Shown piece by piece: positions 6,947 to 49,364 of a stretch of 64,000 bases of DNA. The notes beneath the pieces are model-generated. The model was not told the DNA's origin, searched no databases, and saw nothing but the letters and a program-made list of their open reading frames with translations. The position numbers were made by a program, and so were the translations under genes. Where the stretch lies: assembly GCA_035626155.1 (NCBI GenBank), contig DASPOF010000070.1, positions 12,619-76,618 on the forward strand, given 5' to 3'. This stretch comes from Candidatus Binataceae bacterium (lineage in GTDB: Bacteria > Desulfobacterota > Binatia > Binatales > Binataceae). The first letter of the stretch is position 1. Each line of letters begins with the position of its first letter.

Positions 6947-7546
6947 TCAATAACATCGGCTCCAGAGCTCGTCCGTATAAAGCTCAACGGCGTACCAGTG
7001 CCTTTCGAGGCGACGTACAACAGAGACCTCACAGGGTATGCCGCTGAACCGGCCAGACTGGCCCTTATCTGCGGCGGCTGACAGAGAATCACTCGGATCA
7101 AAAACAACGTAGACCGTGGTGTCCTGTCCGGCCCAGCCCCAACCGTCCCATTCAGTATGCTTCAGCTCCCCTTCTGTAGGTACAGCTTCTGCCAGAACCC
7201 TGGCCTTGTAATACTTCGAAAATACGACCCATCTGACAACGTTTCGGATTCCGCTTTGATTTGTCACCAGAACCGCGGAAATTGTCCAACCCAAGAGGAG
7301 CATCGACAAAGTTGGGACCCAGCGGCGGGTTCTTCTTGCAATTGCATTCTTCACCAGTAAACCAATCCAGATGAGGCTGATGATTAGTACAGCGGCCAAG
7401 TACGCCAACAGCCACAGGTCTGGTTCCAAGAATGCCGCAGGCGCAAAAAGGATGAGATTGCCCGCAACCACGTACAACAGCAGCCGCCGCCACCTAAAAC
7501 GCTTTTGTCCCGCAGCTTCTTCCATCACGCATCCCCTTGGAAGCAT
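6947..7546 (-). CDS. Hypothetical membrane protein with 2 predicted TM helices and a soluble C-terminal domain. It sits in a low-GC segment.
   Basis: A 199-aa ORF. The region around 6850-7620 is visibly AT-richer than its flanks. It has hydrophobic stretches LLLYVVAGNLILFAPAAF and LAAVLIISLIWIGLLV. It may start at the internal MEEAAG. Confidence 0.45.
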   Translation of the reverse strand: MLPRGCVMEEAAGQKRFRWRRLLLYVVAGNLILFAPAAFLEPDLWLLAYLAAVLIISLIWIGLLVKNAIARRTRRWVPTLSMLLLGWTISAVLVTNQSGIRNVVRWVVFSKYYKARVLAEAVPTEGELKHTEWDGWGWAGQDTTVYVVFDPSDSLSAAADKGQSGRFSGIPCEVSVVRRLERHWYAVELYTDELWSRCY

Positions 7547-7708
7547 AGTTCAATGATCGCCACGGTAGGCAATGCCCGAATCGCTGTTGGAATTGAGTAA
7601 GGGCTCGATAGTCATTGAGGCGGTCTACTTTGGACTGTCAGCTCTACGATCGAGTATGGTGTCGTGAGCGCCCGCCGGGGCGATGGACGGCGGCGCGACC
7701 GTCCGGCG

Positions 7709-8212
7709 CTATTCGCCGACGCCTCGCGCGCGCAGAATCTGACGCCCGGTCTCGATGAGCGTGCGCTCGTTCTTGTAAGTGGCGCGCCGGATCGCCTCGT
7801 CGATGTCGAGCCACGCAACTTCCTCGATCTCGTGGTCGTGACGGCCCGAGTCGCCGCCGGCAAATTGCATCAGGAAAAAGCGCACCCGCTTGAAGATTCG
7901 CGTGAGCGGCCCGCCCGGCTCGTCGCGCCAGGAAAAGACGTACGACACGTCGCCCAATTTCTCGACCACGCCGACCTTAAGCCCGGTCTCCTCGCCGACC
8001 TCGCGCACCGCGGCTTCCTGCATGCTTTCGCCCTGTTCGACATGGCCCTTGGGCAGCGCCCACGCGGACGACCCCTCGGGCCGAATCATCGCGACCTCGA
8101 TTCCGCCACGGGCGCCGCGCCGCCACACCAGTCCTCCGGCGGAGAATTCGCGGCGCGTCGGGATAGCGCCGCCGCGCGGCTTTTCATTCCGAGGTTTCGA
8201 CTGTCGGGCCAT
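7709..8212 (-). CDS. NUDIX hydrolase.
   Basis: A Nudix box GHVEQGESMQEAAVREVGEETGL. I trimmed the start to MARQSKP..., and the upstream extension of the ORF is probably not coding. Confidence 0.7.
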   Translation of the reverse strand: MARQSKPRNEKPRGGAIPTRREFSAGGLVWRRGARGGIEVAMIRPEGSSAWALPKGHVEQGESMQEAAVREVGEETGLKVGVVEKLGDVSYVFSWRDEPGGPLTRIFKRVRFFLMQFAGGDSGRHDHEIEEVAWLDIDEAIRRATYKNERTLIETGRQILRARGVGE

Positions 8213-8238
8213 TTCCCTGAAGACTGCCAGCCGAACCT

Positions 8239-10389
8239 TCAGCCGACGTCGGCCAGACTGAAGCCGAGCGAGAGCATGCGCCTGAGCGCCGCGCGCGCGC
8301 CTTCCGATGATGGACTCTCGAGGCGCGGGTCGCGGCGCAGCCACTCATCCGCCATCGTGCGCGCTTTTTCGATCAGACGCCAATCGCGAATCAGGTGCAC
8401 GAAACGCAGCGGAAGCGCGCCGGCCTGACGCGCACCGAGCAAATCGCCCGGCCCGCGCATCTTGAGATCGGCCTCGGCGACCTCGGCGCCGGTCGCGCAC
8501 GAGGCCATCACCCGGATGCGATCGCGCGCCTTCTCATCGGCGTCGCGCGATGCGACCAGGATGCATCGCGACGGCACAGCGCCGCGCCCTACCCTGCCCC
8601 GCAACTGATGCAGTTGGGCCAGCCCGTAACGCTCCGCCCCGACGATAACAATGACGGTCGCCTCGGGCACGTCGATTCCCACTTCGACCACGGTGGTGGA
8701 GACGAGCGCGTCGATGGCGCCATCGCGGAACTCGCGCATCACGCGATCCTTTTCTGCCGCGCGCATCCGCCCGTGCATCGTGCCCACCCTGAAATTCGCA
8801 AGCCGCCCGCGCGCCAGCCGCTTCGCCATCGCGGCGACGGAGCGAATTTCCTCCTCCGGGGAATCGATCATGGGGAGTACGTAATAGGCGCGATTGCCGC
8901 GCTCGATCTCCCCGCGGACGAGCGTGTCCACCCGCTCGAGGTCGTCCTCGGTGAAAATCTCGGTCGTGACCGGAGTTCGCCCGGGCGGAAGCTCATCGAG
9001 GAAGGAAACGTCCAGATTGGCGAAGAGGCTCATCGCGAGGCTTCGCGGAATCGGCGTCGCCGTCATCATCAGAACGTTTGCCGCCGGCCCAAGGGCTTTG
9101 AGCCGCGCCCGATCGAACACGCCGAAGCGATGCTGCTCGTCGATTACGCCGAGGCCGAGCTTTGCGATGCGCACGCGCTCCTGGATGAGCGCGTGAGTGC
9201 CGAAGACCATCGCGATAGCTCCTGAAGCCAGCCCGCGCAGAATCGAGGAGCGTGCCGAATCGCCGATGCCGCCCGTCAGCAAAGCGCTCGTGACCCCCAG
9301 CGAGCCGCACTGGCGTTGGAAGCTCGCAAAGTGCTGCTCGGCAAGCAATTCGGTGGGCGCCATCATCGCGGCCTGGTACCCGCACTCGACCGCGCGCAGC
9401 GCAGCCCAGAATGCGACCAACGTCTTCCCGCTGCCGACGTCGCCCATCAGCATCCGGTTCATCTGGCCCGGCTGCGCAAGGTCGGCGGCGATCTCATCGA
9501 TCGCGCACGCCTGCGATGCGGTCGGCGCAAACGGCAGCTCCCGGAGCCATCGCGTACTGAGGCTCAGCGCCTCGTCGAGGGCGATTCCTTTGCGCCGCGC
9601 GGATCGCGCCCGTTCGATCGAGAGCGCCAGCTCGAATGCGAACAGCTCGTCGAATCCGAGTGCGAGATGACCCGGCGATTCGCCATCCTGCAACAGATCC
9701 AGGTTCGCATCGGCCGGCGGGCTGTGGAGCATTCGCAAAGCCTCGCCAATTGGCAGGTACTCAGTGCGCAGATCGTCAGGCACCGCGCCCGAAATCTCAT
9801 GGCCGATCGCGTCGAGCGCCTGCGCGACAAGGTTCGAGAACAGGCGTTGCGGCACGCCAGCGGGCAGACCGTACACCGCTCGAATCGGCGGCGGCTCGCC
9901 GGATGACAGTGCGAACAATTCGGGCTGGACGATTTCGAGCGAGCCCTCGGAGTTCGCTGCGACGCGGCCGTGCGCAAGCACGCGATCGCCCGACGGCATC
10001 CGTCCCCGCATGTACGCGGGCAGATTGAACCACACGAGGCGGATTTGCGCGCCGCCGTCTTCGGTCAGCAATCCGCTGGCGAGCCGCCGCCACGGCGCGC
10101 CCCGCATCGGCCGTTCCTTGATGTCGCCGAGCTGTCCTTCGACGACAGCGATTGTTCCGGCCGCGAGATCGCGAAGCGCAACCCGCGCGCGCCAGTCCTG
10201 ATAGCGCGCAGGCAGATGAAACACGAGGTCCTGGAGCGTCGCGATACCGCGATCGGCAAGGGCGGCGGCGCGCTTGGGGCCGATTCCCGCGAGCGCGGCG
10301 ACCGGGGTATCGAGGGTCCACGGCGCAGGGCTGGCGCCCGCGCGGGCCTCGTCAGCCTTCCTTGCGGGCCGCTGTGAACTTGCGCGCAT
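8239..10389 (-). CDS. recG: ATP-dependent DNA helicase RecG.
   Basis: A wedge/OB N-terminus followed by helicase motifs (...MGDVGSGKT..., DEQHRFG, ...LMMTATPIPRS..., ...QLRGRVGRG...). 716 aa. Confidence 0.9.
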   Translation of the reverse strand: MRASSQRPARKADEARAGASPAPWTLDTPVAALAGIGPKRAAALADRGIATLQDLVFHLPARYQDWRARVALRDLAAGTIAVVEGQLGDIKERPMRGAPWRRLASGLLTEDGGAQIRLVWFNLPAYMRGRMPSGDRVLAHGRVAANSEGSLEIVQPELFALSSGEPPPIRAVYGLPAGVPQRLFSNLVAQALDAIGHEISGAVPDDLRTEYLPIGEALRMLHSPPADANLDLLQDGESPGHLALGFDELFAFELALSIERARSARRKGIALDEALSLSTRWLRELPFAPTASQACAIDEIAADLAQPGQMNRMLMGDVGSGKTLVAFWAALRAVECGYQAAMMAPTELLAEQHFASFQRQCGSLGVTSALLTGGIGDSARSSILRGLASGAIAMVFGTHALIQERVRIAKLGLGVIDEQHRFGVFDRARLKALGPAANVLMMTATPIPRSLAMSLFANLDVSFLDELPPGRTPVTTEIFTEDDLERVDTLVRGEIERGNRAYYVLPMIDSPEEEIRSVAAMAKRLARGRLANFRVGTMHGRMRAAEKDRVMREFRDGAIDALVSTTVVEVGIDVPEATVIVIVGAERYGLAQLHQLRGRVGRGAVPSRCILVASRDADEKARDRIRVMASCATGAEVAEADLKMRGPGDLLGARQAGALPLRFVHLIRDWRLIEKARTMADEWLRRDPRLESPSSEGARAALRRMLSLGFSLADVG

Positions 10390-10414: not shown

Positions 10415-13400
10415 TCAGCGGGGATGATAATCCTGAAGGGCGCGGACTTCCATGCGCTCGCGCTTGAGAGCCTTGATTCCCTCGACCGCCGCCTGCGCGC
10501 CCGCCATCGTCGTGAAGTACGGCAGCCTGAGCTCCAGAGCGGTTCGCCGGATCGAAAACGAGTCCGCGGTGCCGCTCGCGTCGGGCGTGTTTATCACCAT
10601 CGCGATTTTGCCCTCGCGCATCCGATCGACCACGTGCGGACTGCCCTGCAAGACCTTATTGACCGGCTCGCACGGATGGCCGAGGCCCTCGATGTAACGC
10701 GCGGTGCCACGCGTCGCGATCAAATCAAAGCCCATCGCCGTGAGCCCGTCCACGATCGGGGCAAGCTCGGCCTTGTCTTCATCGCGCACGCTGATGAAGA
10801 CCCGGCCCGCAGCGGGCAGGTCCGAGGATGCGGCCAGCTCCGCCTTGGCGAAGGCCATCGCGAACGACATGTCGATGCCCATGACCTCGCCGGTCGATTT
10901 CATCTCGGGACCGAGAATGGTATCGACCCCCGGGAAGCGCGCGAACGGGAAGACGGATTCCTTGACCGCGAGGTGGACCGGCACGCGCTCGGTGGCGAAG
11001 CCGAGTTCGCGCAGCGTCTTTCCGGTCATGATTAGCGAGGCGAGTTTCGCGAGCGGGACGCCGATTGCTTTGCTCACGAACGGAATCGTGCGCGATGCTC
11101 TCGGGTTCACCTCGAGGATGTAAATCTCGCCGCGATAAATCGCGTACTGGACGTTGATCAGCCCGACGACGCCGAGTTCGCGCGCGAGCATCCGGGTCTG
11201 ATCCGCAAGCCCGCGCTGGATCTCGGGCGTGAGCGTTCGTGGCGGCAGGACGCACGCGCTGTCTCCCGAGTGGATCCCGGCATGTTCCACGTGCTCCATG
11301 ATTCCGCCGATCACGACCGTCTCTCCGTCCGAGATCGCGTCCACATCGACCTCGATCGCGCCGTCGAGATATCGGTCGATCAGCAGCGGATGGCGCTCGG
11401 AGGCTTCGAAAGCCTGCGCGACGTAACGGCGCAGCGCCGACTCGTCGACAATCACTTCCATCGCGCGCCCGCCGAGCACGTAGGAGGGCCGGATGAGAAC
11501 CGGGTAGCCGATTCGCGCCGCTCCCCTGACGGCCTCATCGAGGCTGCGCGCGAGCACCCCTTTGGGCTGCCTGAGACCGAGCTTTTCCACCAGTACGTTG
11601 AAGCGCTCGCGATCCTCGGCGCGATCGATCGCATCGGGACTCGTGCCGAGAATCGCAACGCCGGCCTTCGCGAGCGGCACCGCCAGCTTGAGCGGCGTCT
11701 GCCCTCCGAATTGCACGATCACGCCGAGCGGCTTCTCGCGCTCGGCGATCGCGATGACATCCTCGAACGTGAGCGGCTCGAAGTAGAGGCGGTCCGAGAC
11801 GTCGTAGTCGGTCGAGACGGTTTCGGGATTGCAGTTGACCATGATCGTCTCGAAGCCCGCCTCCTTGAGTGCGAGGCTCGCGTGGACGCAGCAATAGTCG
11901 AACTCGATCCCCTGCCCTATCCGGTTCGGCCCGCCGCCGAGAATCATCACCTTGCGCCGGTCATCGGGCGGTGCTTCGTCCTCGCCTTCGTATGTCGAGT
12001 AGAGATACGGCGTGTACGCCTGGAACTCGGCGCCGCAGGTATCGACTGTCTTGAAGACCGGCATCACGCCCGACTCGCGCCGGCGTGCGGCGATCTCCGG
12101 CTCGTCCGTTCGCCTGAGATCGGCGATTCGCCGATCGGAAAATCCCATCGCCTTGAATTCGCGGAAGTACTCGGCCGAAAGCGGCTCGCTCGCGGCGCGG
12201 CGCTCCGCCTGAACGATTCGCGCGATGCCGTCGATGAACCACGGATCGATCTTCGTGAGTTCGTACGCCTCGGCCTCCGACATCCCCAGGCGCAGCGCGT
12301 CGGCCAGATGGTGCAGTCGGTGGCTGCTCGGCATCGCGATGCGGGCGCGGAGCGCCTCCAGCGCGCGCTCACGGCCCTGCTCTGCAAGCGTGCTCTCCAG
12401 TCCGTAGGAGCCGATCTCAAGCGACCGCAGCGCCTTTTGAAGGGATTCCGTGAACGTGCGGCCGATCGCCATCACCTCGCCCACCGACTTCATCTGCGGG
12501 CCCAGCTCGTCAACGGCGCCACGGAATTTTTCGAACGTGAAGCGCGGAATTTTGGTGACGACGTAATCGATGGTCGGCTCGAAGCAGGCGGGCGTCATCC
12601 TGGTGATGTCGTTGGGGATTTCATCGAGCCGGTAGCCGACGGCGAGACGCGCCGCAATCTTCGCGATCGGGAAGCCGGTCGCCTTCGATGCGAGCGCCGA
12701 GCTGCGCGACACGCGCGGGTTCATCTCGATCACCACCATGCGCCCGGTGCGCGGCTCGATCGCGAACTGGATGTTCGAGCCGCCCGTGTCCACGCCGATT
12801 TCGCGGATGATCCTCTGCGCGGCATCGCGCATGAGCTGATATTCCTTGTCGGTCAGCGTCTGGGCGGGCGCGATCGTGATCGAGTCGCCGGTGTGCACGC
12901 CCATCGGATCGAGGTTCTCGATCGAGCAGACGATCACGACGTTGTCGGCGCAATCGCGCATCACTTCGAGCTCGAATTCCTTCCACCCCTCGATTGATTC
13001 CTCGAGCAGCACTTCGTGGCTTGGCGAGATATCGAGTCCCCATGCGACCCTGGAACGGAATTCGCCCTCGGTGCGCGCGATCGATCCGCCGGTGCCGCCG
13101 AGCGTGCGCGAGGGGCGGATAATCAGCGGCAGGCCGAGCGTTGCGCGAACGCCCTCGGCATCGTCCAATGAGTGCGCGATCGCGGAGCGCGGAACCTCGA
13201 GCCCGATATTGAGCATCGCGCGCTTGAACAGCTCGCGGTCCTCGGCCTTCTTGATCGCGTCGAGCCGCGCGCCGATAAGCTCGCAGCCGTAGCGCTCGAG
13301 CACACCCGACTCGGACAGCTCGATCGCGAGATTGAGCGCAGTCTGCCCGCCAACCGTCGGCAGCAGAGCGCCGGGCCGCTCGCGCTCGATGATTCGGGCG

Positions 13401-13621
13401 ATCGAGCCTGCGGTCATCGGCTCGATATAAGTGCGATCGGCCAGCTCGGGGTCGGTCATAATCGTGGCGGGATTGGAGTTGATCAGGATCAGGCGCAGGC
13501 CTTCCTGGCGAAGCGCCCGAAGCGCCTGCGTGCCTGAGTAATCGAACTCGCACGCCTGGCCGATCACGATCGGTCCCGACCCAATCAGCAGAACTGATTT
13601 GAGATCTTTGCGAAGCGGCAC
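10415..13621 (-). CDS. carB: Carbamoyl-phosphate synthase large subunit.
   Basis: 1068 aa with duplicated ATP-grasp halves (...[23 protein letters not shown]... and ...[23 protein letters not shown]...) and a C-terminal MGS-like domain. Confidence 0.95.
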
Positions 13622-13673
13622 TTCAGATTTCCCGGCACTCCCGGTTCGCGGCCTTACGCCGCGCGCCGGCGAG

Positions 13674-14876
13674 TCAGTTTTTCCTCACCGCCTCCTCGGC
13701 GGCTATGCGTTCGATGGATTCGGCGCCGTAGCGCGGGAATAGCTCCACCATCCGTTTGAATCGCGCGAACAGGTAATTCGAGTCGTGCGGACCGGGCGAT
13801 GCCTCCGGATGGTACTGCACTGAGAAAAAAGGGACGCCGCGCCCGCGCAATCCCTCGACGGTTCGATCGTTCAGATTGAGATGAGATAGGTCGGCCCGCT
13901 CCTTGACCGACTCGGCCTCCACCGCGAAGCCGTGATTCTGCGCGGTGATTTCGACCCGCCCGGTGCGAAGATCCATCACCGGATGATTCGCGCCGTGATG
14001 GCCGAAGTCGAGCTTGTAGGTGCGTCCGCCCAGCGCGAGACCGAGAATCTGGTGGCCGAGGCAAATCCCGAAAATTGGCTTGCGCCCCAGCACTCCCGCA
14101 ACCGCGTTGTACGCATACGGAAGCGCCGCCGGGTCCGCCGGGCCGTTGGAGAGGAAAATGCCGTCGGGCTGGTGCGAGAGGATCTGCTCCGCAGTCGACG
14201 ATGCGGGCAGCACGCGCACTCTGAAGCCGGTCGATACGAGCCGGCGCAATATGTTGAGCTTGATCCCGTAATCCAGCGCGACGACCAACGGCGCATCGCG
14301 AAGTTCGCCGCGCCCGCGACGGGCATAGCCCCGGCCCAACTCCCATCCGCCGATTTCCCAATCGTACGGCTCGGCGCAGGTGACTTCCTTGACGAGATCG
14401 CGTCCAACGAGCCCTGGCGATGCTTTCGCTTTGCGCACCAGCGCGTCGCTGTCGAGGTCGGTGCTGGAGATGACCGCCTCCTGCGCGCCGTGAGTGCGGA
14501 TATGGCGGACCAGCGCGCGTGTGTCGATTCCTTCGATCCCGACGATGCCCGCCTGAGCGAGATATTCCCCCAGCGGCATCTCGGAGCGCCAGTTCGACGG
14601 ACGCTGCCAGCATTCCTTGACGATGAAGCCATCGACGTAGACGCGCCGCGATTCGACGTCCTCGCGGTTCACGCCGACATTTCCGATTTCGGGATACGTC
14701 ATGCAGACGAGCTGGCCCTTGTAGGACGGGTCGGTGAGAATTTCCTGGTATCCGGTCATCGCGGTGTTGAACACGACCTCGCCGACCGTCTCGCCGATCG
14801 CGCCAAAGGCGCGCCCTCGGAAGACGCGCCCATCGGCAAGGGCGAGAATCGCGTCGCGTCGTGCGCCCGTACTCAT
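13674..14876 (-). CDS. carA: Carbamoyl-phosphate synthase small (glutaminase) subunit.
   Basis: ...[21 protein letters not shown]... with the GATase triad region ...GICLGHQ.... Its start overlaps the pyrC stop by 4 nt. Confidence 0.95.
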
Positions 14877-16240
14877 CGCAGTTCACCTCGCCGTCCGTCG
14901 AACACGATCTCACCGCCGACGATGGTCATCACCGCCCTCCCCTTAAGCCGCATCCCCGCGAACGGCGTATTGCGGCTGCGCGACAGGAATCGCTCCGGCT
15001 CCACCGTCCATTCGAGATTCGGGTCAACCACCGTAATGTCCGCGGGCGCTTCCACGGCCAGCGTGCCAGCCTCGAGCCTGAGCAGCGCTGCGGGATTTAC
15101 CGACATGAGTTCGACCAATCGCCCCGCGCCAATCAAACCACAATGCACGAGGCCGAGCGCAAGGCCAAGGGCGGTCTCCAACCCCACGACGCCGTTGGCC
15201 GATTGCGCGAATATCGCCGCGACATCGGGCGCGAGCCGCTCGGCGTCGCGCGCGGGATTGAAGTACCCGGCCAGGGCATCGAGGCGCTTCGATGCGGGGT
15301 CGTGCGGCGCGTGATCGGTCGCAATCATATCGATGCCGCCGTGGCCGATTGCATCGCGGAGCGCATCCACGTCATCGCGGCTTCGAAGCGGCGGGTTCAT
15401 CTTCGCGTTCGGGCCCCATCGCAGCGCCGCGCTCTCATCGAGCGCAAAGTGATGCGGCGTTACTTCGCACGTGACGCGCGCGCCGCGCTTGCGCGCAGCC
15501 GCAACCAACTCGACCGACTCGCGCGTCGAGACATGCGCGATGTGGACCGCGGCTTCGGTTCCGATCGCAAGCGAGAGATCGCGCCTCACCCGCTCCGACT
15601 CGGCAGGCCCACTGTAACCGTGAACGCCGAGGCGCTCGGCGACGGCGCCCGCGTTGACCGCGCCTTCGTCCGAGAGCGAGCGCTCTTCCTCATGGAGTGA
15701 GATCGCGAAGCCCAGTTGGTTGATTTCATCCATCGCGCGCGACAGAACCGCGGCGTCATCTACCGGGATGCCGTCGTCCGAGAACAGGCGCGCCCCCGCC
15801 GCGGCCATCGCGGCATAATCGACCGTCTCGGCTCCGCTAAGCCCTCGCGTTACCGCCGAGACCGGAACCAGCCGCGTGGAGCGCGCCTCAGCGGCGCGTT
15901 CGAGCATGTACCGGGTAATCTCGCGCGTGTCGTTCACGGGCGACGTGTTCGCCATCGCGGCAACGGTGGTAAAGCCGCCCGCCGCTGCGGCGCGCAGGCC
16001 GCTCGCGATGGTCTCCTTCTGGGGGAAGCCCGGATCGCGCAGATGGACGTGCGGATCGATTAGTCCCGGCAGCACCCACCATCCGGTCGCATCGATGACC
16101 GCCGCCCCATCGCCGCCGCGCAGCGACCCGGGGCGATCGACGGCTTCGATCTTTCCGTCGACCACCAGGACATCCGATGCGGCGTCGATTCCTGATGCGG
16201 GATCGACCACGCGGCCGGCCTTCAACAAAAGCGGTCTCAT
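14873..16240 (-). CDS. pyrC: Dihydroorotase.
   Basis: [13 protein letters not shown]...[15 protein letters not shown].... I verified an ATG at 16240 in the sequence, and it makes an ATGA overlap with the pyrB* stop. The upstream extension of the ORF is rejected. Confidence 0.9.
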
Positions 16241-18183
16241 CCCGCATGCTCCGGCGCCTTGAGCGGCTCGACCATCGAGTAAATCGTCGCGCGGTCGTGC
16301 GCCTTGCGCCTGGCATCCGGCGCGGGCGGCTCCAGGCGCACCTGGACGCGCTCGAAGCGGGAGGTCGGGATGTTCTTGCCGACGTAGTTGGCGCGAATCG
16401 GAACGGCGCGATGGCCGCGGTCGATCAGCACCGCGAGCTTGACCGCGGCCGGCCGTCCATGGCGCCAGATGGTCGCCATCGCCCGCTGCACCGTCCATCC
16501 GCTGTTGATCACGTCGTCCACGAGCACGATCGTACGACCCTCGGCATCGAACTTCTCGGCGCCGTCGAGCGGATGAACCGTCTCGGCCGGTCCGTAGATG
16601 TCGACCGCAGCGCTCGGCAGCCGCACGCCGGAGCCCGCCTCGATCAGGTCGCGGATCCGCATCGCCAGTTGCGCGCCGCGACTCACGACGCCCACGATCG
16701 ACACGCCCGCCAAATCCGGCAGGTCCGCGGTAATTTGCGCGGCGAGCGACTCGACCGCGTGCGCAATTTCATCGGCGTCCATGACCTCGCGCTGCGGGCC
16801 GCGCTTGTAAGGCTCGAAGCCGTTCTCCTCGGCCTGTTTGACGTTCTCGAACACGGCAAGCGAGCCTTCATCGATCCACTGGCGGACGTAACCGTAGAGG
16901 CTCTCGTCGTACGCGTAATAGCGATGGGACCGGACGTGCCCGACGAACTCGGCGCGAAGCTCCCGCTCGCAGAAGTCGCATCGGAGCCGAAACTCGGCGC
17001 GCGTGACGGTCGGAGCCAGAGTGAAGCGGGGATGCAGGTAGGCGCCCTCGAAACGCGTGATGCAATTCGAGTTTGCGCATCGAGGGGACGGCTCGGCCTT
17101 GAATCGAATCGCCTCGCCTGTTGGAGCGCGGGGCGAGCGCCGCTCGCCTGCCTGTTCGATCATTCGGGCAATCAGCGCCATCCTGACCGGTACGCCGGCC
17201 GCGGCCTGCTCGAAGTACACGGCGCGCGGGTCGGTGTCGAGTTCGTATGCGAGTTCGCTGGTGCGCGGCAGCGGATGCATGACGACGGCTTCCTGCGTGC
17301 GATGCGTCCTCAGCGCGCGCGCATCGAAGTGGACGTACTCGGCGGGCTTCATTTCCTGGCCCGACAGCCGCTCCTTCTGAAGCCGCGTCACGTAGAACGC
17401 ATCGAGGGCCGCCGGCGGCTCTTTGGTGGGAAGTTTGTCGATTTGGACCTCACCGGTGAACAGCGCCATCTGGTGCGGCGCGCTCGGCGTCAGGTACAGC
17501 GCGTCGAGACCGCCGGCCAGCGACTTGAGTTCATCGATCGTCACGGTCGAAAAGCTGTAGTTGCGCTCCGCGGCCAGGCGCTCGAGCACGTAATCGGGCA
17601 CATCCATCCCGCTGGTCGGGACGGCGACGATGTTCGCGCCGAAGCGCGCGAGCGCATAGATCAGCGAATGCACGGTGCGGCCGAACTTGAGATCGCCGCA
17701 CAGCGCCACCGTCAGTCCCTTGAGCCTGCCCTTCTTGCGGCGCAGCACGTAGAGGTCGCAAAGCGTTTGCGTGGGATGTTCGCGGCTGCCGTCGCCGGCG
17801 TTGATGATCGGGCACGGCGCGTACTCGGCGGCTACGCGCGCGGCGCCGTCGTGCGGATGGCGAAGCACGATCAGGTCGGCGTACCCGGAGACCACGCGGA
17901 CCGTGTCGGCGAGACTTTCTCCCTTGGCGGCGGAGCTGGCCTGCATGTCGGCGGAGCTGATCACCGCGCCGCCCAGCCGATGCATCGCGGACTCGAAGCT
18001 CAGGCGCGTGCGCGTCGATGGTTCGTAGAAGAGCGTCGCCATGATGAGGCCGCTTGCCAGTGAAACACTCTCGCCGCGCCCGAGCGCCTCGGAGAACTGG
18101 TCGGCGAGCGCGAAGATGCGCTCGATTTCGGGGATCGCAAGATCCTCGATCGAGACGATGTCCGATTTTGGAACCCGCGCCAT
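16237..18183 (-). CDS. pyrB: A tri-domain fusion of 648 aa. Residues 1 to about 375 are an aspartate carbamoyltransferase catalytic chain. Next comes a PyrI-type zinc-binding domain (CANSNCIT...CDFCERE). The C-terminus is a PyrR/uracil-PRTase-like domain.
   Basis: N-terminus: ...ATLFYEPSTRTRLSFESAMHRLGG...HPTQTLCDLY.... Middle: PRCANSNCITRFEGAYLHPRFTLAPTVTRAEFRLRCDFCERELRAEF, compared with E. coli PyrI CPNSNCISH...KCKYCEKEF. C-terminus: ...RTIVLVDDVINSGWTVQRAMATI...LIDRGHRAVPIRANYVGKNIPTSRFERVQV..., compared with PyrR ...VILVDDVLYTGRTVRA...[21 protein letters not shown].... It is one uninterrupted ORF in the supplied track. Confidence 0.85.
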   Translation of the reverse strand: MARVPKSDIVSIEDLAIPEIERIFALADQFSEALGRGESVSLASGLIMATLFYEPSTRTRLSFESAMHRLGGAVISSADMQASSAAKGESLADTVRVVSGYADLIVLRHPHDGAARVAAEYAPCPIINAGDGSREHPTQTLCDLYVLRRKKGRLKGLTVALCGDLKFGRTVHSLIYALARFGANIVAVPTSGMDVPDYVLERLAAERNYSFSTVTIDELKSLAGGLDALYLTPSAPHQMALFTGEVQIDKLPTKEPPAALDAFYVTRLQKERLSGQEMKPAEYVHFDARALRTHRTQEAVVMHPLPRTSELAYELDTDPRAVYFEQAAAGVPVRMALIARMIEQAGERRSPRAPTGEAIRFKAEPSPRCANSNCITRFEGAYLHPRFTLAPTVTRAEFRLRCDFCERELRAEFVGHVRSHRYYAYDESLYGYVRQWIDEGSLAVFENVKQAEENGFEPYKRGPQREVMDADEIAHAVESLAAQITADLPDLAGVSIVGVVSRGAQLAMRIRDLIEAGSGVRLPSAAVDIYGPAETVHPLDGAEKFDAEGRTIVLVDDVINSGWTVQRAMATIWRHGRPAAVKLAVLIDRGHRAVPIRANYVGKNIPTSRFERVQVRLEPPAPDARRKAHDRATIYSMVEPLKAPEHAG

Positions 18184-18218: not shown

Positions 18219-18761
18219 TTACTTGCCGTTTCCGATCACGACCCCGTCGGCGCCGTCGAGCTCCGTAAGACGGACGTAAACGCGCCGGCCCTGCGGAGCG
18301 GCGACGTTCTTGCCCACGAAATCCGCGCGAATAGGGAGTTGATGCTCGCCGCGATCGACGAGCACCGCCAGCTCGATCGACGCTGCACGCCCGAGGTCCG
18401 AGAGCGCATCGAGCGCCGCCCGCACCGTGCGCCCCGTGTAAAGCACGTCGTCCACCAGCACGACGCGCTTGCCGTCGAGAGAAAACGGGATATTGCGCGC
18501 GAGCAGGCGGGGATCGCCAGGCGCGCCTTTGCCGTCGTCGCGGTAGGAGGAGATGTCGAGGGTGCCGACCAACACCGAGCGTTTCTGGTTGGCGCCAAGC
18601 TCGGCGGCAATTCGCTCCGCCAGGTACGCGCCGCGGCGGATTATCCCGACCAGGACGAGGTTTTCGATGCCGCCGTTGCGCTCCGCGATCTCGTGCGCGA
18701 TACGCTTCACGGTGCGCCCCACCTGCGCTGCGTCGAGCGCCACCTCCGGTTTCGCGTTCAT
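18219..18761 (-). CDS. pyrR: Bifunctional pyrimidine operon regulator and uracil phosphoribosyltransferase PyrR (canonical, stand-alone copy).
   Basis: MNAKPEVALDAAQVGRTVKRIAHEIAERNGGIENLVLVGIIRRGAYLAERIA...VVLVDDVLYTGRTVRAALDAL...LVDRGEHQLPIRADFVGKN.... I chose the start at MNAKP, which aligns with the B. subtilis PyrR N-terminus. The ORF extends to 18815 through the terminator. Confidence 0.85.
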   Translation of the reverse strand: MNAKPEVALDAAQVGRTVKRIAHEIAERNGGIENLVLVGIIRRGAYLAERIAAELGANQKRSVLVGTLDISSYRDDGKGAPGDPRLLARNIPFSLDGKRVVLVDDVLYTGRTVRAALDALSDLGRAASIELAVLVDRGEHQLPIRADFVGKNVAAPQGRRVYVRLTELDGADGVVIGNGK

Positions 18762-18771
18762 GATTTGGGCG

Positions 18772-18804
18772 AAAAAAAACCCCGACCGCCGAAGCAGCCG
18801 GAGT
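18772..18804 (-). terminator. Intrinsic terminator, or a PyrR-type transcription attenuator, immediately 5' of pyrR.
   Basis: Minus-strand RNA reads CCGGCUGC-UUCG-GCGGUCGG-GG-UUUUUUUU. This is an 8-bp stem with two G-U pairs and a UUCG tetraloop, then a U8 run ending 10 nt before the pyrR AUG. A further hairpin CCGUCACGGGAUGACGG lies upstream in the leader. Confidence 0.5.
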
Positions 18805-18920
18805 CCGTTATGCAAAAGTCCATTGTTCCAACCTTTCCGTCATCCCGTGACGGATTAAAGGTTAATTATTTTTTACCGGCCGGGCCGGACCCGGTCAAGC
18901 GGGGCCGCGGGCGGCGGCCG

Positions 18921-19517
18921 TCAGCCGCGGGCTTTGCGTTCGAGCTTGCGCAGGCGCTGGCCGTGATCGCGCGTCTCGACCGTGATGCGATCATCGAAGC
19001 GGTCGAACTTGCGCGCGAGGTTCTGGACCGCCTTGTTGGTCTTGCCGATCTCGGCGCCGAGCTTCTTTGCGGCAAGCTCGGCGGCGGAAGCGATTTCGCG
19101 CTTGAGGGACTGGGCGGTTTCGGCGGCTGCCTCGCGATCGGCCATTGAGGTTCGCAGCGCGGCTTCCTGAGCGGCTGCCGGCGCCGGCTCGCGCGCATGC
19201 TCGCGCACCGAGGCATCGATTGCGCCCATCTGTTCGCGAAACTCGACGCGCGTCTTGCCAAGCGCCTCGCCCAGCCGCACCATCTCCGCGCTCAAATCGG
19301 CGCGCAGAGCGGCGATGCCCATGCGATTCTCGGCGATCTGGTCCGAGAGAAACCGTATCTGGCTTCCGACCTCGGCGAATTGACCGAACAGCTCCTCGCG
19401 CAGCGAGTCGAGCCTCCCGCCGAAACCGGAAACCGCCTCGACCACCAGCTCGAAGCGCGCGCCGAGTTCCTCGAGCAGCGTGCCGAGCCTTGCCACACCG
19501 TCTTCAGCCACCGCCAT
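18921..19517 (-). CDS. Hypothetical coiled-coil protein.
   Basis: A 198-aa Ala/Glu/Arg-rich heptad-like sequence with no catalytic motifs. Confidence 0.45.
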   Translation of the reverse strand: MAVAEDGVARLGTLLEELGARFELVVEAVSGFGGRLDSLREELFGQFAEVGSQIRFLSDQIAENRMGIAALRADLSAEMVRLGEALGKTRVEFREQMGAIDASVREHAREPAPAAAQEAALRTSMADREAAAETAQSLKREIASAAELAAKKLGAEIGKTNKAVQNLARKFDRFDDRITVETRDHGQRLRKLERKARG

Positions 19518-23029: not shown

Positions 23030-24337
23030 TCAGACTGCCGGGCGTCCGATCGAGTAGTACCTGAAGTCGAGCGCCTTCATCAGATCTAAATCATACAGGT
23101 TGCGCCCGTCGAATATCACCGGCTGCTTGAGCTCCGCCTTGATGCGCTGGAAGTTCGGATGGCGGAACTCGTTCCATTCGGTGCAGATGATGAGCGCGTC
23201 GGCGCCGCTGAGCGCCTCGTAATTGATCTTGTGGAAGGTCACCCGGTTGCCCAGCAGGCGGCGCGCGTTGTCGAGCGCCTCGGGGTCGTGGACCTGCACC
23301 GCTGCGCCCGCGGCGAGCAATTCCTCGATAATCACCAGCGAGGGCGCCTCGCGCATGTCGTCGGTGCGCGGTTTGAAGGCGAGTCCCCAGATCGCGAACA
23401 CGCGGCCGCGCAAATCCGCGCCGAAGTGCTGCTTGACGCGCGCCGGCAGGAGCCGCTTCTGGCGCGCGTTGACCGACTCGGCGGCCTTGAGCAGCCCGAA
23501 ATCGAGCCGATGCTCGGCCGCAGTGTGAATCAGCGCCTGCACGTCCTTGGGGAAGCAGGAGCCGCCGTAGCCGACGCCGGGGAACAGGTATGACGAGCCG
23601 ATGCGGCGGTCGGAGCCGAGTCCACGGCGGACCGCGTTGATGTCCGTGCCCGCGGCCTCGCACAGATTCGCCATCTCGTTGATGAACGAGATCTTGAGCG
23701 CGAGCATCGCGTTGCATGCGTACTTGGTGATTTCGGCGGAGCGCGGGTCCATCACGATGATCGGGTTGTCGGTGCGGACGAATGGCGAATGGATCTCGCG
23801 CAGGATCGCGCTGGCGCGCTCGCTCAGGCTCCCGATAATCACCCGATCGGGACGCATGAAGTCCTCGATCGCGGAGCCTTCCTTGAGAAATTCCGGCACC
23901 GAGCAAACATCGACGGAGTGCCGCGCGTGACGCCCCACGATCTCGCGCACGCGGTCGTTGGTGCCGACCGGGACGGTGCTCTTGACCGCCAGGATGTGGT
24001 ACCCGGTTACCGCCTTGGCGATTTGTTCGGCCGCCCCGAACACGGCGCTTAAGTCCGCGGCCCCGTCAGCGCTCATCGGGGTTCCGACCGCGATGAAGGA
24101 GACCATCGATTGCGCAATCGCCGCGCCCGTGTCGGTCGTGAAGCGCAGCCGCCCCTCCTTCATGTTGCGGCGCACCAGCTCTTCGAGTCCGGGTTCATAG
24201 AACGGGACCTTCCCGTCCTGGAGAGCGGCGATTCGGCCGGCATCGATATCGACGCAAACGACCTCGTTGCCGCTCTCGGCATAGCAGGTGCCGCTCACCA
24301 GCCCGACGTACCCGGTTCCGATCACTGCGATATTCAT
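23030..24337 (-). CDS. ugd: UDP-glucose 6-dehydrogenase.
   Basis: MNIAVIGTGYVGLVSG... with ...GGSCFPKD... (catalytic Cys). 435 aa. The N-terminal ORF extension is rejected. Confidence 0.9.
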   Translation of the reverse strand: MNIAVIGTGYVGLVSGTCYAESGNEVVCVDIDAGRIAALQDGKVPFYEPGLEELVRRNMKEGRLRFTTDTGAAIAQSMVSFIAVGTPMSADGAADLSAVFGAAEQIAKAVTGYHILAVKSTVPVGTNDRVREIVGRHARHSVDVCSVPEFLKEGSAIEDFMRPDRVIIGSLSERASAILREIHSPFVRTDNPIIVMDPRSAEITKYACNAMLALKISFINEMANLCEAAGTDINAVRRGLGSDRRIGSSYLFPGVGYGGSCFPKDVQALIHTAAEHRLDFGLLKAAESVNARQKRLLPARVKQHFGADLRGRVFAIWGLAFKPRTDDMREAPSLVIIEELLAAGAAVQVHDPEALDNARRLLGNRVTFHKINYEALSGADALIICTEWNEFRHPNFQRIKAELKQPVIFDGRNLYDLDLMKALDFRYYSIGRPAV

Positions 24338-24348
24338 CCAAGCATCCT

Positions 24349-25287
24349 CTAGAGTTCCTCTTTGATCACGTAAATCTGCTTGCTCTGGGACTCGTGGTAG
24401 GTGCGCGCGAGCATCTCGCCCAGAAGTCCGAGGCTCACGAACTGCACGCCGACCACCACGAGGAGCACGGCCAGCAACAGCGCGGGACGGTCGCCCAGCG
24501 GGCGGCCGAGCACGATTTTTTCGAACACCAGCCACGCCGTCCACAGCGAGCCGAGCGCGCCGAGCACCACGCCGATCGCGCCGAACACCTGGATCGGGCG
24601 CGTGGAGTAGCCCGACAGAAATTTGACCGTTATCAGGTCGAGAAGCGTGCGCAGGATTCGGCCCGGGCCATACTTCGACCGGCCGGAGCGGCGCGGCCGG
24701 AAGTTCACCTCGACCTCGGCGATGCGCGCGCCCTGTTCGGCCGCGATCGCCGGGACGAACCGATGCATCTCGCCGTAAAGCATGAGCCGGCGCGCAAGGT
24801 CGCCCCGGTAGGCCTTCAGCGTGCATCCGTAATCGTGGAGCGGCACGCCGGTAATCCGCGAGATGAGGGCGTTGGCCGCGACCGACGGCAGCCGGCGCGT
24901 CAGCGTGGCGCCGCGCCAGCGCTCGGTGCGCCATCCGCTGACCAGATCGTAGCCCTCATCGAGCTTTGCGAGCAGGCGCGGAATGTCGGCCGGGTCGTTT
25001 TCTCCATCGCCGTCGATCGCGACGACGATCCCGCCGGCGGCGCTGCGCAATCCGCACGCCAGCCCCGCAGTCTGCCCGTAATTGCGCGCAAGCCGGATCA
25101 CGCGGACGTGCGAATCGGATGACTTGATCCTGCCGAGTACGTCGGCGCTGCCGTCGGTTGAGCCGTCATCGATGAATACGATCTCGTAGGAGCGGCCGAG
25201 GCCCTCCATCACGCGCGTCAATTCCTCGTGCAGCGGGGCCAGATTGTCCCGCTCGTTGTACAGCGGGACGACTACTGAGAGGTCCAT
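24349..25287 (-). CDS. GT2-family polyprenyl-phosphate glycosyltransferase (ArnC/DPM1/RgtE-like) with C-terminal TM helices.
   Basis: ...VVVPLYNERDNL...EIVFIDDGSTDGS... and ...AIDGDGENDP... (a DxD motif), with 2 C-terminal TM helices ...IGVVLGALGSLWTAWLVF...LLAVLLVVVGVQFVSLGLLGE.... Confidence 0.85.
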   Translation of the reverse strand: MDLSVVVPLYNERDNLAPLHEELTRVMEGLGRSYEIVFIDDGSTDGSADVLGRIKSSDSHVRVIRLARNYGQTAGLACGLRSAAGGIVVAIDGDGENDPADIPRLLAKLDEGYDLVSGWRTERWRGATLTRRLPSVAANALISRITGVPLHDYGCTLKAYRGDLARRLMLYGEMHRFVPAIAAEQGARIAEVEVNFRPRRSGRSKYGPGRILRTLLDLITVKFLSGYSTRPIQVFGAIGVVLGALGSLWTAWLVFEKIVLGRPLGDRPALLLAVLLVVVGVQFVSLGLLGEMLARTYHESQSKQIYVIKEEL

Positions 25288-49360: not shown

Positions 49361-49364
49361 CGCG

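What the first reader, a model, noticed from the sequence alone, without database searches (positions are those of the whole stretch)
16237..18183. An all-in-one aspartate carbamoyltransferase: a PyrB catalytic chain fused to a PyrI zinc domain and a PyrR/PRTase-like domain
One uninterrupted 648-aa ORF carries three modules.
- An ATCase catalytic chain (STRTR, HPTQ motifs).
- A roughly 45-aa segment that matches the PyrI zinc domain almost motif-for-motif (CANSNCIT ... RCDFCERE against E. coli CPNSNCIS ... KCKYCEKE).
- A C-terminal domain close to PyrR (VLVDDV..G.T, DRGHR.VPIRA.YVGKNIPTS).

The PyrI allosteric (CTP/ATP) domain is absent. In classical ATCase the zinc domain docks the regulatory chain onto the catalytic trimer, and regulatory dimers bridge two trimers. 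Here a PRTase-fold domain, a family that dimerises and binds UMP/UTP/PRPP, sits where the allosteric domain would be. That suggests an ATCase whose allostery is rewired to uridine nucleotides or PRPP, possibly with the PyrR-like dimers holding a c6-like assembly together. Fused PyrB-PyrI proteins are known (for example Thermotoga). I am not aware of a described PyrB-Zn-PyrR architecture.
Basis: partly seen in the sequence, partly recalled or inferred. Interest (0 to 1): 0.85.

Follow-up and report, generated by a model that had tools for sequence, protein, structure and literature searches.

The report
ATCase fused to zinc adaptor and PyrR-like sensor
The pyrimidine-pathway enzyme aspartate carbamoyltransferase of the uncultured soil bacterial class Binatia is one 648-residue chain that keeps the zinc "docking" piece of the classical regulatory subunit but carries a PyrR-derived nucleotide-binding domain in place of the usual CTP/ATP sensor, a natural module swap in the textbook allosteric enzyme that has not been described.

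Summary
Window 16237..18183 (minus strand) is one uninterrupted 648-aa ORF. It contains an intact ATCase catalytic chain, a 4-Cys PyrI zinc domain (Pfam PF02748, above its cut-off) and a full-length PyrR-type PRTase domain. The PyrI allosteric domain is absent.

It is not an assembly artefact. More than 120 90%-identity protein clusters and 85 species genomes carry it, nearly all of those named being Binatia. The gene order is always pyrR, fusion, pyrC, carA, carB.

- a highly conserved 54-aa module between the zinc and PyrR-like domains;
- a constant 39-42-aa insertion in the aspartate domain that duplicates a strand;
- a separate canonical PyrR with its RNA attenuator directly upstream.

The fused PyrR-like domain keeps the phosphoribosyl/nucleotide-binding loop in every sequence. 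It has lost the conserved basic residues of PyrR helix 1 (net charge about -3.5) and the YRDD loop.

The best reading is an enzyme-tethered nucleotide sensor that regulates ATCase through the retained zinc adaptor, probably in a hexamer. That mechanism is inferred, not shown. I found no description in the searchable literature. Verdict: a new variant of a known kind.

The parts
16237..18183 (-). Whole fused gene: 648 aa plus the stop codon. PyrB catalytic chain, tether, PyrI-type zinc domain, linker module, PyrR-like domain.
   Evidence: ORF list, translation, Pfam and NCBIfam, full-length orthologues.
17734..18183 (-). Carbamoyl-phosphate-binding domain (aa 1-150). It carries STRTR (56-60), S84/K87, R108 and HPTQ (136-139).
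   Evidence: PF02729 at aa 8-148, E 2.9e-45. The catalytic residues are invariant in 66/66 sequences.
17149..17733 (-). Aspartate-binding domain (aa 151-345). It carries R169, R267, Q269 and HPLP (303-306), and ends in the C-terminal helix VRMALIARMIE.
   Evidence: PF00185 in two stretches. Alignment to 2rgw and 1ml4. Invariant residues.
17407..17526 (-). Family-specific insertion in the aspartate domain (aa 220-259). Copy 1 is 'LDALYLTPSAPHQMALFT'. It is followed about 32 aa later by copy 2, 'LDAFYVTRLQKERL', which carries the catalytic residues.
   Evidence: There is a gap in the alignment to the closest solved ATCases, query 219 to 260. The length is 39-42 aa in all 66 sequences and mean identity is 0.51. 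AF2 pLDDT is below 50.
17083..17148 (-). Variable tether (aa 346-367) between the catalytic chain and the zinc domain.
   Evidence: Mean pairwise identity is 0.21, the lowest of any internal segment. AF2 confidence is low at 349-355.
16951..17082 (-). PyrI-type zinc domain (aa 368-411). The Cys ligands are C369, C374, C402 and C405, with a C-x-N-x-N-C motif.
16789..16950 (-). Conserved linker module (aa 412-465), predicted beta-beta-alpha-beta-alpha, with the motif 'LAVF(D/E)xxKQAEExG(F/Y)EPYKxGPQR'. It belongs to no curated family.
   Evidence: Mean pairwise identity is 0.61. W436, F445, K449, A451, E452, P458 and R465 are invariant. AF2 pLDDT is 84-89. There is only a weak resemblance to the Ada N-terminal domain.
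16264..16788 (-). PyrR-like type-I PRTase domain (aa 466-640). The PRPP/nucleotide loop is VLVDDVINSGWT (553-564). DRGHR is at 588-592 and K603 is conserved.
   Evidence: PDB PyrR hits at E about 1e-26 covering the whole PyrR chain. NF003549 at 128.8 bits. Residue census.
18219..18761 (-). Stand-alone canonical pyrR (180 aa from the ATG at 18761), 35 nt upstream of the fusion.
   Evidence: NF003549 at 208.5 bits against a cut-off of 138. Start position. Present directly upstream of the fusion in every locus that holds enough upstream DNA.
18771..18865 (-). PyrR-binding attenuator RNA: a binding hairpin followed by an intrinsic terminator, just upstream of pyrR.
   Evidence: RF00515 at 34.8 bits (gathering score 54), full model length, E 0.002. 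Terminator-like site at 18806-18777. The same element upstream of pyrR scores 51.9, 48.5 and 46.4 bits in L053, L046 and L068.
14873..16240 (-). pyrC (dihydroorotase). Its ATG overlaps the fusion's stop codon (ATGA).
   Evidence: Pfam Amidohydro_1 and DHOase. Overlap shown.
10415..14876 (-). carA (13674..14876) and carB (10415..13621). They complete the operon pyrR, pyrB fusion, pyrC, carA, carB.
   Evidence: ORFs. carA Pfam hits. The same gene order is seen in L081.

Best explanation
This is the housekeeping aspartate carbamoyltransferase of a Binatia bacterium, with its regulatory apparatus built into the catalytic chain.

Shown:
- The catalytic module is intact. It belongs to the lineage of ATCases that partner with PyrI.
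- It is followed by a variable tether, a PyrI-type Cys4 zinc domain, a strongly conserved 54-aa module, and a complete PyrR-derived PRTase domain.
- That domain keeps its phosphoribosyl/nucleotide-binding core but has lost conserved basic residues of PyrR helix 1 and the YRDD loop.

Inferred:
- The zinc domain docks on the carbamoyl-phosphate domain of a catalytic chain, as it does in E. coli-type holoenzymes.
- The PyrR-like domain binds pathway nucleotides or PRPP. UMP/UTP as inhibitors is the most likely case, with GMP/GTP or PRPP possibly acting against them, as in PyrR.
- Occupancy is passed through the linker module and zinc domain, and perhaps the aspartate-domain insertion, to the active sites.
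- Dimerisation of the PyrR-like domains probably joins two catalytic trimers into a D3 hexamer that stands in for c6r6.

Gene-level control is left to the separate canonical PyrR and its attenuator upstream.
For: Identity and integrity:
- Pfam and NCBIfam hits.
- All 13 ATCase active-site residues checked and all 4 Cys are invariant in 66/66 sequences spanning 46-79% identity.
- The catalytic part scores 277, 266 and 228 bits against M. jannaschii, P. abyssi and E. coli ATCases, which have PyrI. It scores 120 and 97 bits against B. subtilis and Aquifex ATCases, which do not.
- The zinc domain matches PyrI by sequence profile and by fold. The C-x-N-x-N-C motif is kept: N371 and N373 are invariant in alignment A1 of four divergent members.

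Selection on each module:
- More than 120 protein clusters and 85 species genomes carry the fusion.
- The linker module has identity 0.61 against 0.21 for the tether.

A ligand site is kept:
- PRPP-loop residues D556, D557, G562 and T564, together with DRGHR and K603, are invariant in 66/66.

Probably not an RNA binder. Numbering is B. subtilis PyrR. The assignment of T18, R19, H22 and R27 to RNA binding is from my memory of Savacool & Switzer 2002 and was not verified here.
- R19 is conserved in 80% of 70 diverse PyrRs and in 73/76 Binatia stand-alone PyrRs, and is replaced in the fusion.
- The position of R27 is D or E in 64/66 fused sequences.
- Net charge of the helix-1 segment is -3.5 in the fusion, against +0.1 and +0.8 in the two PyrR sets.
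- A real PyrR (208 bits) with an RF00515 attenuator lies upstream.

Probably not a UPRTase:
- Loop residues R73 and D75 are 89% conserved in PyrRs and are lost in the fusion.
- R112 is W in all 30 Binataceae-type sequences.

PyrR ligand logic: UMP/UTP promote RNA binding and GMP/GTP antagonise it (review PMC7430163).
Against: - There are no biochemical or structural data for any family member.
- The AF2 monomer has pTM 0.50 and a disordered insertion, so it says nothing reliable about docking or oligomer state. No multimer prediction was available.
- The module order is the reverse of PyrI, with the effector domain C-terminal to the zinc domain. PyrI-like geometry therefore cannot be assumed.
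- R112W and the shortened flexible loop in Binataceae could weaken nucleotide binding rather than merely abolish catalysis.
- Conservation of the PRPP loop is also compatible with residual catalysis.
- The ligand identity is an extrapolation from PyrR.
Confidence: 0.55

Rival explanations
1. A bifunctional enzyme. The C-terminal domain is an active uracil phosphoribosyltransferase, so one polypeptide joins de novo synthesis (ATCase) to salvage (UPRTase). The zinc domain and linker serve only as structural spacers.
For: The PRPP-binding acidic pair and phosphate loop are invariant: D556, D557, G562 and T564. Canonical PyrR has UPRTase activity (PMC7430163). Distant fused clusters (P0131, P0182) still carry FRDD/YRDD and SGRT/TGRT.
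Against: In the 66 Binatia sequences the conserved loop residues R73 and D75 are replaced. R112 of the phosphate loop is W in all Binataceae-type members. This reading does not explain why a PyrI docking domain with four invariant Cys and a highly conserved linker module would be maintained.
Confidence: 0.13
2. A purely architectural replacement. The PyrR-like domain acts only as a dimerisation module that takes over the bridging role of the PyrI regulatory dimer (stability, cooperativity) and has no effector ligand.
For: PyrR proteins are obligate oligomers. A series of dimeric and tetrameric PyrR structures is in the PDB (4p80-4p86). The zinc adaptor is retained.
Against: The nucleotide/PRPP-site residues are invariant across 46-79% overall identity, while surface positions drift. 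That pattern is hard to explain without a ligand.
Confidence: 0.15
3. An enzyme-tethered gene regulator. Either the fused PyrR-like domain binds the pyr leader RNA itself, or it heterodimerises with the free PyrR encoded 35 nt upstream and sequesters it. ATCase would then act as a 'trigger enzyme' that couples flux to attenuation.
For: R141, R146/K146 and K152, which I recall as contributing to RNA binding in B. subtilis PyrR, are retained. pyrR lies directly upstream of the fusion in every locus with enough upstream DNA. An attenuator is present.
Against: The helix-1 surface is acidic in the fusion, with R19 lost and the R27 position D/E in 64/66. The fused domain is only 34% identical to the adjacent PyrR. 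pyrR-pyrB adjacency is ordinary in pyr operons. R141 and K152 also sit next to the nucleotide site, so keeping them is not specific to RNA binding.
Confidence: 0.08
4. An assembly or annotation artefact: two or three adjacent genes (pyrB, a pyrI remnant, pyrR) merged by a frame error.
For: Databases do hold short 'stand-alone' pieces (P0121, P0126, P0343, P0384 and others).
Against: Those pieces start inside the PyrB C-terminal helix or inside the zinc domain. Some come from contigs on which pyrB, pyrC and carA are all fragmented. The uninterrupted ORF recurs in 65 independent genome assemblies and in more than 120 protein clusters.
Confidence: 0.01

Closest known systems
E. coli / archaeal type (class B) ATCase holoenzyme, PyrB6-PyrI6
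   Same: The catalytic chain is most similar to this lineage. A Cys4 PyrI zinc domain with the C-x-N-x-N-C motif is present. The presumed logic is the same: an adaptor domain couples a nucleotide-binding domain to the catalytic trimer.
   Different: It is a single polypeptide. The PyrI allosteric (CTP/ATP) domain PF01948 is absent. The effector module is a PRTase-fold PyrR paralogue placed C-terminal, not N-terminal, to the zinc domain. There is an extra 54-aa module and a 39-42-aa insertion in the aspartate domain.
Thermotoga maritima fused PyrB-PyrI ATCase (Chen et al. 1998, cited as ref 6 in PMC4581275; NCBIfam NF009916)
   Same: The catalytic and regulatory functions sit in one chain that includes the zinc domain.
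   Different: The Thermotoga type fuses a complete PyrI (allosteric plus zinc domain). This protein scores only 85.6 bits against NF009916 (cut-off 800), and only over part of the catalytic domain, aa 46-205.
PyrR, the bifunctional pyr mRNA-binding attenuator / uracil phosphoribosyltransferase (B. subtilis, B. caldolyticus, T. thermophilus, M. tuberculosis)
   Same: The whole PyrR fold aligns (E about 1e-26, roughly 40% identity). The PRPP/nucleotide loop, the DRGHR motif and the C-terminal strand are kept.
   Different: It is fused to an enzyme. It scores below the NCBIfam PyrR cut-offs (128.8 against 138). Conserved basic helix-1 residues are replaced by acidic ones. The YRDD loop is lost and R112 is W in Binataceae. 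A true PyrR is encoded next door.
Plant ATCase (Arabidopsis PYRB, PDB 6ypo/6yw9): a trimer feedback-inhibited by UMP
   Same: It is a functional analogue if the prediction holds: ATCase controlled by a uridine nucleotide rather than by CTP/ATP through PyrI. The PDB entries appear. The UMP inhibition is from my own knowledge.
   Different: As I recall it, UMP binds in the active site of the plant enzyme and there is no regulatory domain. Here a dedicated sensor domain is appended.
Class A ATCase-DHOase dodecamers (Aquifex, Pseudomonas)
   Same: This is another way of bridging two catalytic trimers without PyrI (PMC4581275). pyrC is translationally coupled to the fusion here.
   Different: The catalytic domain here is distant from that lineage: 97 bits to Aquifex 3d6n. 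The bridging candidate is built into the chain.

Membership tests
ATCase catalytic chain (PyrB; TIGR00670) | OTCace_N plus OTCace two-domain fold, scoring above the curated equivalog cut-off. | tested here: met
   TIGR00670 at 290.6 bits against 236.95, NF002032 at 276.6 against 263. PF02729 and PF00185 hit. Foldseek TM (target-normalised) 0.79-0.87 to solved ATCases.
ATCase catalytic chain (PyrB; TIGR00670) | Active-site residues, E. coli numbering: S52, T53, R54, T55, S80, K84, R105, H134, Q137, R167, R229, Q231, L267. | tested here: met
   All are present and invariant in 66/66 family members.
ATCase catalytic chain (PyrB; TIGR00670) | Carbamoyl-aspartate synthesis activity. | not testable with these tools
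   Supported only by operon context: pyrR, pyrB, pyrC, carA, carB.
PyrI regulatory chain of class B ATCase | C-terminal zinc domain with four Cys ligands (PF02748). | tested here: met
   [not shown]
PyrI regulatory chain of class B ATCase | N-terminal allosteric nucleotide-binding domain (PF01948). | tested here: not met
   No PF01948 hit at E<=1. The chain goes from the PyrB C-terminal helix through a 22-aa variable tether straight into the zinc domain.
PyrI regulatory chain of class B ATCase | The zinc domain docks on the catalytic chain, and regulatory dimers bridge two trimers. | not testable with these tools
   Only a monomer AF2 model was possible (pTM 0.50). This needs AF-Multimer or cryo-EM.
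Fused PyrB-PyrI ATCase (NF009916, Thermotoga type) | Full PyrB followed by full PyrI, scoring above the equivalog cut-off. | tested here: not met
   85.6 bits against a cut-off of 800, matching aa 46-205 only.
PyrR (bifunctional pyr attenuator / UPRTase) | Type-I PRTase fold with the PyrR-specific sequence signature, scoring above the NCBIfam equivalog cut-offs. | tested here: not met
   The best model, NF003549, scores 128.8 against a cut-off of 138. The others score 122.5/230, 115.7/218 and 87.2/268. The fold and the PRPP loop are nevertheless clearly PyrR-like.
PyrR (bifunctional pyr attenuator / UPRTase) | Basic concave RNA-binding surface. In B. subtilis this involves T18, R19, H22, R27, R141, R146 and K152 (residue list from memory of Savacool & Switzer 2002; the basic surface itself is cited in PMC7430163). 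| tested here: not met
   R19 becomes S/A/Q/T, H22 becomes D/E/A, and R27 becomes D/E in 64/66. Helix-1 net charge is -3.5 against +0.1 and +0.8 in PyrRs. R141 and K152 are kept.
PyrR (bifunctional pyr attenuator / UPRTase) | Conserved flexible-loop motif Y-R-D-D and the T-G-R-T phosphate loop. | tested here: not met
   R73 and D75 are 89% conserved in 70 PyrRs and lost in the fusion. R112 is W in 37/66. G111 and T113 are kept.
PyrR (bifunctional pyr attenuator / UPRTase) | Binding of UMP/UTP/PRPP and GMP/GTP. | not testable with these tools
   Inferred from the invariant D556, D557, G562, T564 and DRGHR.
Ada N-terminal (methyl-phosphotriester repair) zinc domain, PF02805, as a possible origin of the linker module | Sequence or fold match, and the Cys4 site. 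| tested here: inconclusive
   [not shown]

The most novel reading that the evidence does not exclude
Binatia have rebuilt the paradigm allosteric enzyme from different parts. A PyrR paralogue, stripped of RNA binding and catalysis, has become the effector domain of ATCase. It is coupled through the ancestral PyrI zinc adaptor and a new conserved module, and it dimerises to close a (PyrB-Zn-PyrR')6 particle. UMP/UTP would inhibit, and PRPP or guanine nucleotides would activate. The duplicated strand inserted beside the catalytic R267/Q269 would act as part of the switch. The same ligand logic would then be used twice in one operon: once on RNA by the free PyrR, and once on the enzyme by the fused PyrR'.
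Probability: 0.35. Interest if true: 0.8.

Novelty: new variant of a known kind. Interest (0 to 1): 0.65.

Why it matters
ATCase is the textbook case of allosteric regulation, and its known quaternary solutions are few: PyrI-bridged (separate or fused), DHOase-bridged, or bare trimers (PMC4581275). This lineage keeps the PyrI adaptor but swaps the sensor for a domain recruited from the pathway's own RNA regulator. That would be a clean natural example of modular evolution of allostery.

It would also be an example of a regulator paralogue splitting into an RNA-level role and an enzyme-level role.

It gives protein engineers a natural template for re-wiring effector specificity through a conserved adaptor.

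On the practical side, it explains inconsistent database names for these proteins. They are called 'phosphoribosyltransferase family protein', 'aspartate carbamoyltransferase catalytic subunit', and, for fragments, 'pyrimidine operon attenuation protein'.

Tried and rejected
1. Naturally split version. I looked for a stand-alone Zn-linker-PyrR' regulatory chain, which would have been strong evidence for a PyrI-like subunit. The candidates (P0121, P0126, P0343, P0352, P0357, P0364, P0384) all start inside the PyrB C-terminal helix or inside the zinc domain. P0384 sits on a contig where pyrB, pyrC and carA are all fragmented. I rejected them as contig ends or frameshifts.

2. Recent duplication of the neighbouring pyrR. 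Rejected. The fused domain is 34% identical to the adjacent PyrR but about 40-47% identical to PyrRs of other phyla.

3. Linker module as a PyrI allosteric remnant. There is no PF01948 signal.

4. Linker module as an Ada N-terminal-like domain. The signals are weak and inconsistent, so I left this as inconclusive.

5. Rfam at gathering threshold found nothing in the window. The PyrR attenuator appeared only in a local E-value search, and it was then corroborated in three other genomes.

6. AFDB fold search for the same architecture. The library was unavailable.

7. The full-length AF2 monomer gave no usable inter-domain geometry (pTM 0.50).

8. Five literature searches aimed at the architecture found no description of it (and the review read). 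The primary PyrR mutagenesis and structure papers (PMC134998, PMC1064020) are not held. The RNA-binding residue list therefore rests on memory, supplemented by my own conservation census.

Full report
**1. The observation**

Window 16237..18183 on the minus strand is one ATG-initiated ORF of 648 codons.

Pfam finds four domains:
- OTCace_N at aa 8-148 (E 2.9e-45).
- OTCace in two stretches (E 2.3e-18).
- PyrI_C at aa 368-411 (30.6 bits, above the curated cut-off of 23.4; E 3e-7).
- Pribosyltran at aa 469-605 (E 1.5e-14).

NCBIfam places the N-terminal half above the ATCase equivalog cut-offs: TIGR00670 scores 290.6 against 236.95. The C-terminal 155 residues fall just under the best PyrR cut-off: NF003549 scores 128.8 against 138. 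The PyrI allosteric domain (PF01948) is not detected.

**2. Is the zinc-domain call more than chance?**

A profile of aa 356-468 from 30 family members was searched against all PDB sequences. Its 12 best hits were all ATCase regulatory chains, aligned exactly over their Cys4 region (E about 1e-4).

The four Cys (C369, C374, C402, C405) are invariant in 66/66 sequences. The C-x-N-x-N-C spacing of PyrI is kept.

**3. The PyrR-like domain**

Residues 465-620 align with the whole chain of every solved PyrR: 1ufr, 1non, 1a3c, 1w30 and the ancestral series 4p80-86 (E 4e-26 to 3e-23). HGPRTases follow only at E 1e-6. The domain is therefore derived from PyrR, not from a generic PRTase.

**4. Not an artefact, and a clade-wide trait**

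- A search of 5.8 billion proteins listed 120 clusters of 645-662 aa, 73-83% identical over the full length, all with the same Pfam domains. The named ones are 'Candidatus Binataceae' or 'Binatus'.
- An exhaustive HMMER scan of 1.84 billion 50%-identity representatives with aa 345-648 found the Zn + linker + PyrR' combination only in this family. More distant full-length members are P0124, P0131 and P0182, at 43, 38 and 31% identity.
- A scan of one genome per GTDB species with the Zn + linker alignment found 85 genomes. Nearly all are labelled Binatia or Binataceae, or are older 'Deltaproteobacteria bacterium' MAGs, including UTPRO1.
- In 65 of the 80 loci held, the fusion is one uninterrupted ORF. 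The others are contig ends or long-read assemblies with indels. In L081, for example, pyrB, pyrC and carA are all broken.

**5. Context**

The gene order is lepA, lepB, an ORF with no Pfam hit, pyrR, the pyrB fusion, pyrC, carA, carB. The fusion's TGA overlaps the pyrC ATG as ATGA.

The gene 35 nt upstream is a canonical 180-aa PyrR: NF003549 scores 208.5 bits. A PyrR gene lies directly upstream of the fusion in every locus with enough upstream DNA.

Immediately upstream of pyrR is a full-length match to the Rfam PyrR-binding attenuator, ending in a terminator hairpin and a U-run. It spans 18771-18865 and scores 34.8 bits against a gathering score of 54. The same element at the same place scores 51.9, 48.5 and 46.4 bits in three other Binatia genomes. 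RNA-level control by a genuine PyrR therefore appears to be in place.

**6.

(a) Catalytic part. It is closest to ATCases that work with PyrI: M. jannaschii 277 bits, P. abyssi 266, E. coli 228. It is far from the PyrI-less B. subtilis (120) and the DHOase-bridged Aquifex enzyme (97). This fits descent from a pyrB-pyrI ancestor.

(b) Insertion. All family members carry a 39-42-aa insertion in the aspartate domain (aa 220-259) that the closest solved ATCases lack. It looks like a partial duplication:
- 'LDALYLTP...' sits where E. coli has 'VDILYMTRVQKERL' but lacks R229 and Q231.
- A second 'LDAFYVTRLQKERL' about 32 residues later carries the catalytic R267 and Q269.
- AF2 cannot place the segment (pLDDT below 50).

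(c) Tether. Residues 346-367 are the least conserved internal segment (0.21).

(d) Linker module. Residues 412-465 form a predicted beta-beta-alpha-beta-alpha module and are among the most conserved parts of the protein. Mean pairwise identity is 0.61, against 0.46 for the zinc domain and 0.51 for the PyrR' domain. The module has no curated family. A resemblance to the Ada N-terminal domain is weak.

(e) Module order. The effector-like domain is C-terminal to the zinc domain, the opposite of PyrI.

**7. What the PyrR-like domain has kept and lost**

I compared 66 fused domains with 70 diverse PyrRs and 76 Binatia stand-alone PyrRs. Numbering is B. subtilis PyrR.

Kept and invariant:
- D105 and D106 (D556, D557).
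- G111 and T113.
- The DRGHR motif.
- K152.

Lost:
- R19, which is 80% and 96% conserved in the two PyrR sets.
- H22, replaced by D/E/A.
- R27, which is D or E in 64/66 fused sequences.
- R73 and D75 of the YRDD loop, which are 89% conserved in PyrRs.
- R115 and D148.
- R112, which is W in all 30 Binataceae-type sequences.

The helix-1 segment has net charge -3.5 (SD 1.3) in the fusion. It is +0.1 in diverse PyrRs and +0.8 in Binatia PyrRs.

PyrR binds RNA through a basic concave surface. UMP/UTP promote that binding and GMP/GTP oppose it (PMC7430163). The specific residue list comes from my memory of Savacool & Switzer 2002, which I could not retrieve.

The fused domain is only 34% identical to the neighbouring PyrR, so it is an old paralogue.

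**8. Interpretation**

Shown:
- An intact ATCase.
- A PyrI-type zinc domain.
- A conserved new module.
- A PyrR-derived domain whose ligand-site residues are under strong constraint, while its conserved basic helix-1 residues and loop residues are not.

Inferred:
- The zinc domain still docks on the catalytic chain.
- The PyrR' domain senses uridine nucleotides, and perhaps guanine nucleotides or PRPP.
- The signal reaches the active site through the linker and zinc domains, and possibly the insertion.
- PyrR' dimerisation closes a D3 hexamer. A chain that contains a C3 module and a C2 module must form either such a closed particle or a larger cage, and a rigidly docked adaptor favours the former.

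I put 0.55 on this regulatory-sensor reading as a whole. The hexamer detail and the ligand identities are the weakest steps.

Rivals:
- Bifunctional ATCase-UPRTase: 0.13.
- Ligand-less scaffold: 0.15.
- RNA-binding or PyrR-sequestering 'trigger enzyme': 0.08.
- Artefact: 0.01.

**9. Comparison with the known and novelty**

The 2015 family review lists only DHOase-bridged, PyrI-bridged (separate, or fused as in Thermotoga) and trimer-only prokaryotic ATCases (PMC4581275). Five full-text searches aimed at the architecture found no PyrB-Zn-PyrR description.

The protein fails the defining tests for:
- a Thermotoga-type PyrBI fusion (NF009916, 85.6 against 800);
- a complete PyrI (no allosteric domain);
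- a bona fide PyrR (below cut-off, and lacking the helix-1 basic residues and YRDD loop that PyrRs conserve).

It passes those for a PyrB catalytic chain and a PyrI zinc domain.

It is best classed as a new variant of a known kind: an ATCase with a swapped effector module. The sequences are already in public databases, but under inconsistent names. Interest is 0.65. It would surprise ATCase and allostery specialists and is directly testable, but it extends a known regulatory principle rather than founding a new one.

Noticed in passing
window 18771-18865 (-); also L053 6175-6302, L046 6206-6317, L068 6210-6325: A PyrR-binding attenuator (RF00515: binding hairpin, terminator, U-run) lies just upstream of the stand-alone pyrR. 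In all four genomes it scores below Rfam's gathering score (34.8-51.9 against 54), so standard annotation would miss it in Binatia.
   Followed up: partly
window 17407-17526 (-), aa 220-259 of the fusion: The aspartate domain has a constant-length (39-42 aa) insertion that appears to duplicate the strand preceding the catalytic R/Q pair ('LDALYLTP...' then 'LDAFYVTRLQKERL'). It is conserved in all 66 fused sequences, absent from the closest solved ATCases, and unresolved by AF2. Its role is unexplained.
   Followed up: partly
[not shown]
   Followed up: partly
P0121, P0126, P0343, P0352, P0357, P0364, P0384; L081; loci L010, L018, L022, L028, L031, L033, L035, L037, L064, L077: Many database entries that look like stand-alone 'PyrR' or 'Zn-PyrR' proteins of 250-345 aa are fragments of this fusion. 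They are created by contig ends or by indels in long-read MAG assemblies. JGI names them 'pyrimidine operon attenuation protein/UPRTase'. NCBI names full-length copies either 'phosphoribosyltransferase family protein' or 'aspartate carbamoyltransferase catalytic subunit'.
   Followed up: yes
L082 (GCA_964372605.1, CAYJUC010000096.1) 5421-9089; L084/L085: Two divergent fused clusters (P0131/P0394 and P0182, 31-38% identical to the window's aa 345-648) keep the FRDD/YRDD loop and SGRT/TGRT. In L082 the fusion sits in a different neighbourhood: ntrY/ntrX-like genes, pyrR, the fusion, then carA with no pyrC between. Their taxonomy is unknown. They may represent an earlier, less degenerate stage of the fusion.
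   Followed up: partly
window 18921-19517 (-): A 198-aa ORF between lepB and pyrR has no Pfam hit. It is rich in A, E and R, and looks like a coiled coil. A 233-aa gene with no Pfam hit occupies the same position in L081.
   Followed up: no
window 46626-52277 (-): This region has strongly positive AT skew (0.10-0.23 on the plus strand). It encodes a 970-aa PMT-family glycosyltransferase whose Pfam match starts only at about aa 520, and a 682-aa PMT_2 + PA14 protein. These are unusual architectures that I did not examine further.
   Followed up: no
window 23030-24934 (-): The UDP-glucose/GDP-mannose dehydrogenase ORF is 634 aa, but its Pfam domains begin at aa 200. This is either a roughly 200-aa N-terminal extension or a longest-ORF start artefact.
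   Followed up: no
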